From the human T2T-CHM13v2.0 reference genome, Homo sapiens, in the NCBI RefSeq assembly GCF_009914755.1, contig NC_060931.1: DNA of 64,000 bases; one strand, 5' to 3'. Positions within the stretch are counted from its first letter, which is position 1, and each line of letters starts with the position of its first letter. Shown piece by piece: positions 62,273 to 64,000 of the stretch. A program made the position numbers and the translations under genes. The notes under the pieces were generated by a model. It saw only the letters and a program-made list of their open reading frames with translations. It had not been told where the DNA came from and ran no database searches.

Positions 62273-62628
<356 letters not shown>

Positions 62629-62736
62629 CTCATTCATTTCTTGTACTAGAAGTGGTGATCTTTGACAATTTGTTTTAATATGAAGTTGTTTTAATGAGGG
62701 GCAAATATTTGGAGCAATTAGCTAATCATTACAACG

Positions 62737-62840
62737 TTTTTTTTTTTTTCTTGTTTTGTTTTTCTCTTTTCTTTTTTTCCCCCAGCTACTGCTCCTCGCA
62801 GAGCAGGGCTAACCCATAGGTAGTGTGCCCAGAGTCAGCC
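62737..62840 (-). mobile_element. Short retroposed structured RNA (~62-nt body + A-rich tail + 14-bp TSD), probably ERV-LTR derived
   Basis: Minus strand GGCTGACTCTGGGCACACTACCTATGGGTTAGCCCTGCTCTGCGAGGAGCAGTAGCTGGGGG then A-rich tail; ATCATTACAAYGTT at 62725-62738 and 62841-62854. Confidence 0.8.
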
Positions 62841-64000
62841 ATCATTACAATGTTCACGCTTACAGCATAAGTTAAGGTAGGACTCAAAAAATTTTTCTGT
62901 AAAGACAATCTCAGAATTAAGTGCTTTCAGGAATTACTATGCAGCTAGAATTTTCTGTAGGATTGAAGGTTCTAGCAGCTTTGAGCATTGATATTGATTT
63001 TGAGAATGAATCCAATTGGCAGTCATCCCCTGGAAGACTTAATTTGAGGTCTTTATACGTACTTGCGCTACAGTAAATAAGAATGTGTCCTAGATGGAGG
63101 CAAAATGGGGTGGGTTTCAAGCATTTAATAAATGTGTTAAACATTTTAACTATTATTTCCTCTTTTCAATTTCAAATAGTGTTAAATGATTGTTATGGGT
63201 AGGAATAGGGTAAACCCATTTCTAGGGCATGGTTTAGAACATTGGTGCAGTTTTTTTCCCAAGAATATCTTAATCACAGCCCTGGTTTTTAGTCTGTTTT
63301 TCTAAGAACTCCGGGAGTTATGCTGGTTTCCTCAGGGATTGTTTTTGGCATTTTCCTCATCATAGAACCTTATGGCATCACCTTGGAGACACAGCGTTAG
63401 TTTAAGGAATGGACATGTGATCACGCAGGTCAATTGGAGTCCCATTTGGTGCTTTTCTGTAGGAGTAGCAGGGAGAGACTGCCTCTTCTGGTTGGATTGC
63501 TAGTGGTGTGTGGGCTGCCAAGTGGCCCCCTTCCTGGCACCAAGCAGAATGCAGCACACACAGGGAGCAGAGCCCGGAGGCTTGAGCCTGATGGCACTTG
63601 AGGAATCTGGGTCCTGGAATGGTAGATGTCCTCCATGCTACCCACTTGCATAGTGAATACATTGCCTTTTTGTCTAAGGTTAAGTTTTCGTTGTTGTTGT
63701 TACATGCAGAATTGAGAAATATGGCCAATATCTTAGGGAAGGTGGCAAGTTAGGAACTGTACTAGCAGGCTATTAAAAGAATCACAGAGGCTAGTAGCCT
63801 TTAGTTTTTAATTTTTTGATTGTCTATTTTTGCTTGTTTGTGATGAGTATTTCTACACCTGGCCAGGGATGCATTCAGATAAACATTTTGGATACCTCCT
63901 CTAAAGTGTCTGTCCACACCACAGGATCACCGCCTGGTCCCTTAGTGCTGACATTCCACTCCAGGAGATGCTGGGCTCCCGGGTGGCGCGCTGTGAGGAT

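What the first reader, a model, noticed from the sequence alone, without database searches (positions are those of the whole stretch)
62725..62854. Retrocopy of a ~62-nt two-hairpin RNA: A-tail + 14-bp TSD, not Alu/L1/tRNA/snRNA
Seen: body 62779-62840 reads on the minus strand GGCTGACTCTGGGCACACTACCTATGGGTTAGCCCTGCTCTGCGAGGAGCAGTAGCTGGGGG, followed by a ~42-nt A-rich tail. It is flanked by ATCATTACAACGTT / ATCATTACAATGTT, whose single mismatch is a CpG transition. By hand the body folds into two abutting stems starting at nucleotide 1. Stem 1: GGCUGACUC pairs with GGGUUAGCC (two G-U), extended by UGGG/CCUA. Stem 2: CUGCUCU-GCGA-GGAGCAG, closed by a GNRA tetraloop. Established: tail + TSD is the signature of L1-mediated target-primed reverse transcription. 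Inference: the template was a discrete short structured RNA, because the 5' junction coincides with the base of the first stem rather than falling at a random truncation point. From memory the sequence resembles the post-TSS (R) region of class I ERV LTRs. That suggests TAR-like short or attenuated LTR transcripts that were polyadenylated and mobilised as a mini-SINE-like family, which annotators would label only as an LTR fragment. Caveat: the target site (TG/AAC) fits the L1 endonuclease TT/AAAA consensus poorly.
Basis: partly seen in the sequence, partly recalled or inferred. Interest (0 to 1): 0.85.

Follow-up and report, generated by a model that had tools for sequence, protein, structure and literature searches.

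The report
L1 retrocopy of short LTR-start RNA
This is an old LINE-1-made copy of a tiny two-hairpin RNA that began at the start site of an ancient retroviral LTR and stopped about 55-60 bases later, and it is one of many such copies scattered through the genome.

Summary
A 62-nt body (62779-62840, minus strand) is followed by a 40-nt A-rich tail and flanked by a 13/14 direct repeat.

The body is the first 62 nt of the R region of a gamma-like (class I) ERV LTR group. It starts 31-32 nt downstream of the LTR TATA box.

It belongs to a family. Of 100 genomic matches to hairpin 2, 42 are short copies (40 independent) and 58 sit inside LTRs. In a second sample, chosen by hairpin 1, 10 of 20 are short.

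The short copies start at one position, the predicted start site, and most carry an extra 5' G that LTR copies lack (24/34 against 2/45), as expected for a copied cap. Their A-tails begin within 10 nt after hairpin 2 in 33 of 40, upstream of the LTR's own AATAAA. Target-site duplications exceed a flank-swap control (18/40 against 3.9/40).

How that RNA got its A-tail is unresolved. My searches found no description in print. The element itself is old and probably inert.

The parts
62841..62854 (.). Target-site duplication, the copy at the element's 5' end (ATCATTACAATGTT on the + strand)
   Evidence: matches 62725-62738 at 13/14; the mismatch is at a CpG; it abuts body nt 1.
62840..62840 (-). 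Body nt 1: an extra 5' G that the LTR template lacks, read as a copied cap
   Evidence: G at this position in 24/34 callable short copies against 2/45 LTR copies (T in 37/45), Fisher p 2.5e-10. by eye: 8/10 against 0/10. A passage of PMC11702581 links an extra G at full-length L1 insertion junctions to the mRNA cap.
62807..62839 (-). Hairpin 1 of the LTR R region (body nt 2-34; nt 1 also pairs in this copy). Nt 2 is the inferred start site.
   Evidence: fold. TATAAA lies at -31/-32 from this G in 20 of the 24 LTR copies that keep an exact TATAAA; the hairpin is predicted in 47/55 LTR copies and 30/40 short copies.
62789..62806 (-). Hairpin 2 (body nt 35-52): 7-bp stem with a GCGA loop
   Evidence: 129 genomic matches to nt 29-52 at <=1 mismatch, reversed-pattern control 0; 541 at <=3 mismatches, control 0.
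62779..62788 (-). Ten nt between hairpin 2 and the tail (TAGCTGGGGG). The start is homologous to LTR copies; the G-run is of unclear origin.
   Evidence: LTR copies mostly read TAC or CAC here. The subject is among the 13/40 short copies whose A-run starts 4-10 nt after nt 52. L073 also has GGGG before its tail.
62739..62778 (-). A-rich tail, 40 nt with 6 interruptions
62725..62738 (.). Target-site duplication, the copy after the tail (ATCATTACAACGTT on the + strand)

Best explanation
The element is an L1-mediated retrocopy of a discrete RNA of about 53-62 nt. The RNA was made from the promoter of a gamma-like (class I) endogenous-retrovirus LTR.

Transcription started at the G that lies 31-32 nt downstream of the LTR's TATA box. 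The RNA was capped, and the cap was copied as one extra 5' G. It comprised the two R-region hairpins and ended a few nucleotides after hairpin 2, upstream of the LTR's own AATAAA. It carried or acquired an A-tract. L1 ORF2p then reverse-transcribed it at a nicked A-rich target, which left a tail and a 14-bp target-site duplication.

Shown here: identity with the LTR R region; a uniform 5' end at the TATA-predicted start site; the extra G; 3' ends clustered just after hairpin 2; A-tails and TSDs above a control; several LTR subfamilies as sources; an age similar to that of the LTRs.

Inferred: capping and Pol II; that the 3' end reflects promoter-proximal termination or pausing (TAR-like attenuation); and the source of the A-tail. 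The tail could come from non-canonical adenylation of the short RNA. It could also come from an early template switch by L1 reverse transcriptase, from another RNA's poly(A) onto the short RNA. I lean about 60:40 to the first.

The copy in SDK1 intron 1 is antisense to the gene, old and most likely inert.
For: Family and context; at least 324 candidate matches in the same genome; 100 of the 129 matches to nt 29-52 were examined. 58 lie inside LTRs with homologous U3 and U5 flanks. 42 are short copies with unrelated flanks (40 independent).

LTR anatomy. TATAAA lies at -31/-32 in 20 of the 24 LTR copies with an exact TATAAA (38 callable). The first AATAAA/ATTAAA lies at +60 to +89 in 22 of 38.

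5' ends. By eye, about 38 of 40 short copies start at the same position; extra G in 24/34 short against 2/45 LTR copies. Where TSDs resolve the junction, the element begins G+GCTAC or G+GCTGC (L130, L140, L143).

3' ends; the A-run starts <=3 nt after nt 52 in 20/40 short copies and 4-10 nt after in 13/40. In LTR copies the figures are 1/55 and 2/55. Tails are >=10 nt in 25/40.

TSDs; 18/40 against 3.9/40 in the flank-swap control. At >=12 nt it is 13 against 0.65. 13 of the 18 start with AA.

Independent sample chosen by hairpin 1: 10/20 are short, all 10 include hairpin 2, and by eye 8/10 have tails within 4 nt of nt 52.

Several sources; the 5'-arm type is linked to the base at nt 27 in both LTR copies (p 1e-6) and short copies (p 7e-5).

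Class I..

From papers (passages read). An extra G at full-length L1 junctions reflects the cap (PMC11702581). ORF2p binds poly(A) together with an adjacent RNA stem (PMC10830416). snRNA/poly(A) retrocopies have the same architecture (PMC4476161).
Against: No RNA data were available, so the cap, the polymerase and the 3'-end mechanism are all inferred from DNA fossils.

The subject's last 10 nt (TAGCTGGGGG) align poorly with LTR copies, and its tail starts later than in half of the family.

8 of 34 callable short copies have A, not G, before the first shared base.

TSDs were found by the strict rule in only 18 of 40. The copies are old.

A few short copies run on to or past the LTR's AATAAA or further into R (L117 and L038; L143). 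The 3' end is therefore not unique.

Eight of 40 copies have T-rich strings (TT, CTT, GTT, TTT) between body and tail that LTR copies lack; this is unexplained.

There is no clear compensatory covariation. In hairpin 1, changes that keep pairing are one-sided transitions, and hairpin 2 was the search pattern.

Both Pfam hits are below curated cut-offs. A second proviral locus gave none in 46 pieces.

Both samples are biased to well-preserved copies. 29 of 129 matches to the first pattern and 297 of 317 to the second were not examined.
Confidence: 0.8

Rival explanations
1. Template-switch origin of the tail. The short LTR RNA was never adenylated. L1 reverse transcriptase began on the poly(A) of an L1, Alu or mRNA template and jumped early onto the 3' end of the short hairpin RNA, as proposed for U6/poly(A) copies. 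This differs from the best explanation only in the tail step.
For: PMC4476161 (passages) gives this as one of two models for snRNA/poly(A) pseudogenes. L118 has a short copy joined directly to a 5'-truncated Alu right arm, which could be such a chimera. The 3' ends are ragged over about 10 nt.
Against: At most 1 possible chimera was seen among the 50 short copies viewed. U6, the RNA that does switch, leaves many L1 chimeras. In L118 I could not find a TSD spanning both parts. In the 18 copies with a TSD by rule, the tail runs straight into the TSD.
Confidence: 0.3
2. R-only transcripts with canonical processing. A solo LTR fires at its start site and the transcript is cleaved and polyadenylated at the same LTR's own poly(A) site. 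The window copy is such an RNA whose 3' part has decayed.
For: L117 runs from the start site through AATAAAAGATTGC into an A-run, and L038 keeps AATAAAAGAT. L059/L003 shows poly(A) addition after the canonical signal. So this route existed.
Against: It accounts for only about 2-3 of 40 copies. 33 of 40 have tails starting within 10 nt of nt 52, yet the hexamer lies at +60 to +89 and cleavage would be further on. The subject has no AATAAA or ATTAAA in its 62 nt.
Confidence: 0.06
3. An ordinary 5'-truncated retrocopy of a long transcript, proviral or read-through, that ended in a 3' LTR.
For: Such copies exist. L059/L003 is a U3-truncated LTR piece with a tail. L1 copies are often 5'-truncated; this is established knowledge, recalled.
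Against: Truncation would scatter the 5' ends through U3 and R, but about 38 of 40 start at one base. Copies of a 3' LTR would carry U3 upstream and would end at the canonical site; these do neither. The extra G fits a true RNA 5' end.
Confidence: 0.03
4. The short copies come from a cellular small-RNA gene that the retrovirus once captured into its R region, not from LTRs.
For: None directly. The idea arises because the unit is discrete and structured.
Against: No Rfam family matches. The short copies carry the same subfamily linkage as the LTRs, so they come from several LTR lineages. Apart from Alus and one triplicated locus, no short copy shares its upstream flank with another, as a source gene and its duplicates would.
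Confidence: 0.02

Closest known systems
snRNA/poly(A) processed pseudogenes (U1, U6, U6atac and others) made by L1 (PMC4476161; abstract and passages read)
   Same: A full-length small structured RNA is followed directly by an A-tract and flanked by variable TSDs at L1-like cleavage sites. The same two candidate routes apply: recruitment of an atypically adenylated small RNA, or an early template switch from a poly(A).
   Different: Here the template is not a cellular housekeeping RNA. It is the first ~55-60 nt of a retroviral LTR transcript, with a cap-type extra G. The sources are hundreds of dispersed LTR promoters of several subfamilies.
HERV-W processed pseudogenes (PMC5537654 and PMC5016936; search listing and abstracts only)
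   Same: ERV-derived RNA mobilised in trans by L1, with poly(A) and TSDs.
   Different: From recall, HERV-W pseudogenes are copies of full or truncated genomic transcripts (R-U5...U3-R-poly(A)). The present copies hold only the first part of R, with no U5, U3 or internal sequence. The PMC5537654 abstract calls HERV-W the sole HERV group mobilised by L1.
HIV-1 TAR short (attenuated) transcripts (recalled; no paper read here)
   Same: A hairpin that begins at +1 of a retroviral R region, and short promoter-proximal RNAs that end just after the hairpin at about +55 to +60.
   Different: No sequence relation. The virus is gamma-like, not a lentivirus. Here there are two hairpins, and the RNAs are known only from their DNA copies. 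No Tat-like activator is implied.
SINEs and mini-SINE-like retroposons
   Same: Short, tailed, TSD-flanked, L1-dependent dispersed copies.
   Different: No internal Pol III promoter or tRNA/7SL/5S-derived head. The copies lack the U3 promoter and so cannot seed further copies. The subfamily pattern points to LTRs as the repeated sources.

Membership tests
L1-mediated (target-primed) retrocopy | A-rich tail at the 3' end of the copied RNA | tested here: met
   40-nt tail in the subject. Tails are >=10 nt in 25 of 40 family members.
L1-mediated (target-primed) retrocopy | Target-site duplication flanking body plus tail | tested here: met
   13/14 over 14 nt in the subject; 18/40 against 3.9/40 in the flank-swap control.
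L1-mediated (target-primed) retrocopy | Insertion at a TT/AAAA-like site | tested here: inconclusive
   The subject reads TG/AACA, 4 of 6 positions. 13 of the 18 rule-found TSDs begin with AA. The consensus is recalled.
R region of a retroviral LTR | Lies between a TATA-type promoter about 30 nt upstream and a poly(A) signal downstream, inside a repeat with shared U3 and U5 flanks | tested here: met
   Homology among LTR copies spans about -390 to +170 around the core. TATAAA is at -31/-32 in 20/24. AATAAA is at +60 to +89 in 22/38.
Class I (gamma-like) ERV | Provirus with MLV-type gag/pol domains between two such LTRs | tested here: inconclusive
   L125 has two LTRs 80.4% identical and 8.7 kb apart. 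MLVIN_C scores E 7.7e-7 at 29.1 bits (cut-off 29.2). Gag_p30 scores E 0.0012 at 18.8 bits (cut-off 27.4). They lie in gag-then-IN order. These are 2 hits in 73 pieces scanned. L124 gave 0 of 46.
Named LTR family (MER4 group is my recalled guess) | Match to the Dfam/Repbase model | not testable with these tools
   No Dfam or RepeatMasker library was on hand. window.fa carries no soft-masking.
SINE | Internal Pol III promoter, with a head derived from tRNA, 7SL or 5S | tested here: not met
   no Rfam match to the body at E<=10. There is no T-run terminator after nt 52 in LTR copies.
HERV-W-type processed pseudogene | Contains U5 or internal sequence at the 5' side, or U3 before R at the 3' side | tested here: not met
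   the short copies share no U3 or U5 homology. The body is 62 nt of R only.
TAR-like attenuated LTR transcript | RNA 5' end at the start site and 3' end just after a start-site-proximal hairpin | tested here: met
   Met at the level of DNA copies only. For 5' ends; for 3' ends.
TAR-like attenuated LTR transcript | Such RNAs are detectable in cells, and their production depends on promoter-proximal pausing or termination | not testable with these tools
   No transcript data were available.

The most novel reading that the evidence does not exclude
Ancient gamma-like ERV LTRs produced abundant capped, TAR-like attenuated transcripts of about 55 nt. L1 then copied them back into the germline hundreds of times. 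This would be a previously unrecognised class of Pol II short-RNA retroposon. It would preserve, at single-base resolution, the start site and promoter-proximal stop of a virus that has been extinct for tens of millions of years. Hairpin 2 next to the A-tract may have made these RNAs unusually good ORF2p templates.
Probability: 0.55. Interest if true: 0.75.

Novelty: new variant of a known kind. Interest (0 to 1): 0.62.

Why it matters
If the reading holds, short capped promoter-proximal Pol II RNAs join snRNAs, Y RNAs and mRNAs as L1 templates. They did so on the scale of a small repeat family: about half of the well-preserved genomic matches to this R region are retrocopies, not LTRs.

These copies are a fossil record of where an extinct retrovirus started its transcripts and where they stopped early. 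Paleovirology normally cannot see this.

It also bears on annotation. Such pieces would be counted as LTR fragments in studies of LTR-derived regulatory DNA, although they carry no U3 promoter.

The single copy in SDK1 intron 1 has no evident function.

Tried and rejected
Rfam at E<=10 on 62600-63000 gave only three sub-threshold chance hits outside the body.

Literature. I searched for solo LTR / R region / processed pseudogene / LINE-1 / TSD, a 21-nt stretch of the body as text (0 papers), LTR short transcripts retrotransposed (0 papers), MER4 / R region / signals, retropseudogenes / LTR / R region / L1-mediated / HERV, and ERV1 / retrocopies / LTR-derived / short RNA / promoter-proximal (0 papers). 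None described this family. Subscription journals, Repbase Reports and Dfam notes were not searchable, so 'not in print' is not established.

Naming the LTR family failed. There was no repeat library, and PMC11007075 (passages) gives only hg38 coordinates of named LTRs.

A whole-frame translation of the chrX locus was not accepted because of stop codons. Stop-free pieces of that locus gave no retroviral Pfam hit in 46 pieces.

The covariation test was uninformative. A MAFFT alignment of 95 copies gave 78% paired cells against 39-52% for slid partners. However, the 5' arm was misaligned between the two arm types, hairpin 2 was the ascertainment pattern, and most variation is post-insertion decay.

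I considered and dropped a Pol III type-3 promoter reading (TATA plus a PSE-like AAAAGTG and an octamer-like ATTTGCAT). The spacing is wrong by my recalled U6 layout, and there is no T-run terminator.

I could not fetch the 30 loci asked for with the second pattern, so I examined 20 short stretches instead.

No orthologous empty-site test was possible because no other primate genome was held.

Full report
OBSERVATION. It is followed by a 40-nt A-rich run (62778->62739) with six interruptions. A 14-nt direct repeat (62725-62738 and 62841-62854, 13/14 matching, the mismatch at a CpG) abuts the tail and body nt 1. Stem 1 covers nt 1-34 with 13 bp and one bulge. Stem 2 covers nt 35-52 with 7 bp and a GCGA loop. 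Energy is -28 kcal/mol, z -1.98, and 9 of 200 shuffles fold as well. No Rfam family matches the body even at E<=10. The fold of this copy alone is only modestly unusual.

IT IS A FAMILY, AND THE BODY IS LTR R-REGION SEQUENCE. A search of the same genome with the 62-mer found at least 324 candidates, of which 40 were scored and 30 fetched. Printed in register, the copies fall into two classes.

- In one class the body is embedded in a repeat. A TATAAATA box sits about 30 nt upstream, and an AATAAA followed by a conserved stretch sits downstream. This is the U3-R-U5 layout of an LTR.
- In the other class the flanks are unrelated right up to body nt 1, and an A-rich tail follows at about nt 53-62.

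For a sample not chosen by its ends, I searched with nt 29-52 in its commonest form. This gave 129 matches at <=1 mismatch, with 0 for the reversed-pattern control, and 541 at <=3 mismatches, control 0. I examined 100 of the 129: all 30 exact matches plus the 70 listed one-mismatch matches. The other 29 were not listed and not seen. Flank homology sorted them into 58 in LTR context and 42 short copies. The short copies are 40 independent insertions, because L082, L083 and L086 are one locus present three times.

THE LTR. Homology among LTR copies spans about -390 to +170 around the core. The LTR ends in ...TGCATCA. In a few copies a TGG-containing primer-binding-like stretch follows.

In 38 LTR copies where the 5' arm could be called, 24 keep an exact TATAAA. 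In 20 of those it lies at -31 or -32 from the G that is the first base shared with the short copies. The base before that G is a pyrimidine: T in 37 of 45. The first AATAAA/ATTAAA lies at +60 to +89 in 22 of 38. One U3-truncated LTR piece (L059, which is the same locus as L003) ends in an A-run about 20 nt after that signal, which marks the canonical poly(A) site.

Two LTRs lie 8.7 kb apart in the same orientation on contig 13 and are 80.4% identical over 469 nt. With a recalled neutral rate of about 2.2e-9 per site per year, that suggests roughly 45 million years, uncorrected. Between them, an MLV-type integrase C-terminal piece scores E 7.7e-7 at 29.1 bits (cut-off 29.2). A Gag_p30 piece scores E 0.0012 at 18.8 bits (cut-off 27.4). 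They lie in gag-then-integrase order. These are 2 hits among 73 stop-free pieces scanned. A second locus on contig 23 gave no retroviral hit in 46 pieces. 'Class I / gamma-like' is therefore supported but not firmly. The family name could not be tested; MER4 group is only my recollection.

5' ENDS. By eye, about 38 of the 40 short copies begin at the same position. L084 and L100 are rearranged or possibly truncated. None begins inside U3.

At the base just 5' of the shared GC..., short copies read G in 24 of 34 callable cases, A in 8 and T in 2. LTR copies read G in 2 of 45 and T in 37 of 45 (Fisher p 2.5e-10). The G appears in copies of both 5'-arm types (GCTGAC-like and GCTAC-like). It is therefore more simply an untemplated addition than a feature of one source.

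[quoted passage not shown] Taken together, the -31/-32 TATA spacing, the pyrimidine-purine start and the extra G identify body nt 2 as the LTR start site. They also indicate that the RNA was copied to its capped end.

3' ENDS, TAILS, TSDs. In the short copies the first A-run starts <=3 nt after nt 52 in 20 of 40. It starts 4-10 nt after in 13 of 40, the subject among them at 10 nt. It starts more than 10 nt after in 6, and is absent in 1. In LTR copies the figures are 1, 2 and 52 of 55. So most copies end upstream of the LTR's own hexamer.

Only L117, and partly L038, run through AATAAA before the tail. Median tail length by my rule is 13.5 nt, and 25 of 40 tails are >=10 nt.

A strict TSD rule found repeats in 18 of 40, against a mean of 3.9 of 40 when each 5' flank was paired with another copy's 3' flank over 20 rounds. 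For repeats >=12 nt it is 13 against 0.65. Thirteen of the 18 begin with AA, as expected for L1 endonuclease sites.

INDEPENDENT SAMPLE. A pattern from hairpin 1 (nt 7-26) has 317 matches at <=1 mismatch, control 0. I could fetch only 20 of the 84 exact matches: the first 20 in list order that were not already held. By eye:

- 10 are in LTRs and 10 are short.
- All 10 short copies include hairpin 2, so none ends after hairpin 1.
- 8 of 10 have tails starting within 4 nt of nt 52. L143 runs to about +65.
- 8 of 10 have the extra G, against 0 of 10 LTR copies.
- At least 8 show flanking repeats, for example a perfect 15-mer in L130.
- Where the TSD fixes the junction (L130, L140, L143), the element begins with G followed by GCTAC or GCTGC.

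This sample also exposes a large subfamily with a different hairpin-2 top (CCACAAGG), which the first pattern missed. The family is therefore larger than the first count suggests. My estimate is of the order of one to a few hundred short copies. That is an extrapolation, not a count.

STRUCTURE. ViennaRNA predicts the two separate hairpins in 45 of 55 LTR copies and 28 of 40 short copies. Mean z is -2.5 and -2.7 against mononucleotide shuffles. In an alignment of 95 copies, 78% of cells pair, against 39-52% when partners are slid. The variation that keeps pairs is one-sided (U-G to U-A, U-A to U-G), and hairpin 2 was the search pattern. The fold is thus a conserved property of this R region, but I have no compensatory covariation for it.

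SOURCES AND AGE. The 5'-arm type is linked to the base at nt 27 in LTR copies (15/0 against 5/18, p 1e-6). The same linkage appears in short copies (12/2 against 3/17, p 7e-5). The short copies therefore descend from at least two LTR subfamilies, not from one master gene or from each other. Pairwise identity over nt 7-28 is about 0.73 among short copies, 0.71 among LTR copies and 0.72 between the classes. The copies were therefore made when the LTRs themselves were young.

MECHANISM. The steps shown and inferred are set out under the best explanation. Two points bear on the tail. PMC4476161 (passages) proposes two routes for snRNA/poly(A) pseudogenes: recruitment of an atypically adenylated small RNA, or an early template switch from an L1 poly(A). 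By that paper's logic, the near absence of chimeras here favours the first route. There is at most one, L118, where a short copy abuts a 5'-truncated Alu. The second route is not excluded. PMC10830416 (abstract and passages) shows that ORF2p grips poly(A) together with an adjacent RNA stem. A hairpin directly before the A-tract may thus have helped these RNAs as templates; this is inference.

COMPARISON WITH WHAT IS KNOWN. In architecture this is an snRNA/poly(A)-type retrocopy. In origin it is ERV RNA, like HERV-W processed pseudogenes, but it holds only the first 53-62 nt of R. The abstract of PMC5537654 calls HERV-W the sole HERV group mobilised by L1. In shape the RNA recalls HIV-1 TAR short transcripts; that comparison is recalled and no paper was read. 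It is not a SINE. It has no Pol III-type head, and the copies lack a promoter. Six literature searches found no description. Repbase, Dfam notes and subscription journals could not be searched.

LIMITS. There are no RNA data, no repeat library and no other primate genome. Both samples favour well-preserved copies. Several tallies were made by eye. The subject's last 10 nt and its G-run before the tail are not explained. The T-rich strings between body and tail in 8 of 40 copies are not explained either.

VERDICT. The window element is an old, inert member of a real family that appears not to have been described. These are L1 retrocopies of a discrete start-site-proximal LTR RNA.

Noticed in passing
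L082, L083, L086 (contig 6 at about 26.56, 26.68 and 57.69 Mb): The same short copy with near-identical flanks occurs three times. This is a segmental duplication, not three insertions, so I counted it once. Its tail is replaced by a TA / CA microsatellite.
   Followed up: partly
L118 (contig 12, about 121.73 Mb): A short copy ends at nt 53 and is joined directly to an Alu that starts in its middle A-rich linker and runs to its own poly(A). It may be a template-switch chimera. I could not find a clear TSD spanning both parts.
   Followed up: partly
Short copies L057, L072, L116, L122 (TT), L043, L084 (CTT), L091 (GTT), L107 (TTT): Eight of 40 short copies have one to three T's between the body and the A-tail, where LTR copies read TAC or CAC. 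This is too frequent for A-to-T decay. It might reflect 3' uridylation of the RNA before adenylation; this was not tested.
   Followed up: no
window 62779-62783 and L073: A run of 4-5 G's sits directly before the A-tail in the subject and in one other short copy. It has no counterpart in LTR copies.
   Followed up: no
LTR copies, about 45-55 nt upstream of the start site (e.g. L010, L022, L035): Most LTR copies carry TTAATTTGCAT, an octamer-like ATTTGCAT, followed by AAAAGTGGG just before the TATA box. I considered a resemblance to snRNA-type promoter elements, from recall, and dropped it on spacing.
   Followed up: partly
L059 = L003 (contig 23, about 119.22 Mb): An LTR piece starts inside U3, next to an Alu tail, and ends in an A-run about 20 nt after the LTR's poly(A) signal. 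This is an ordinary 5'-truncated retrocopy of an LTR-terminated transcript and marks the canonical poly(A) site.
   Followed up: partly
L114 (contig 11, about 63.52 Mb): The LTR is interrupted in U5 by another repeat that begins tgtggggaaaagcaagagagatcag.... From recall, this looks like the start of a younger HERV-K-type LTR.
   Followed up: no
L127-L144, several copies: A second large subfamily has hairpin 2 reading ...CTCCACAAGGAG... This turns the closing U-G pair into C-G and the loop into ACAA. It occurs in both LTR and short copies, and the first search pattern missed it.
   Followed up: partly
window 62311-62635: An antisense Alu with its T-run head lies about 90 nt from the element. 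It matches a stretch the hub listed as masked. I saw no relation to the finding.
   Followed up: no
L058 and L060 (contigs 23 and 24): Near-identical LTRs with a primer-binding-like site and internal sequence occur on both sex chromosomes, so this is an X-Y shared locus. The internal region (L124) has short tandem GGTGA-rich repeats and no recognisable retroviral domains.
   Followed up: partly
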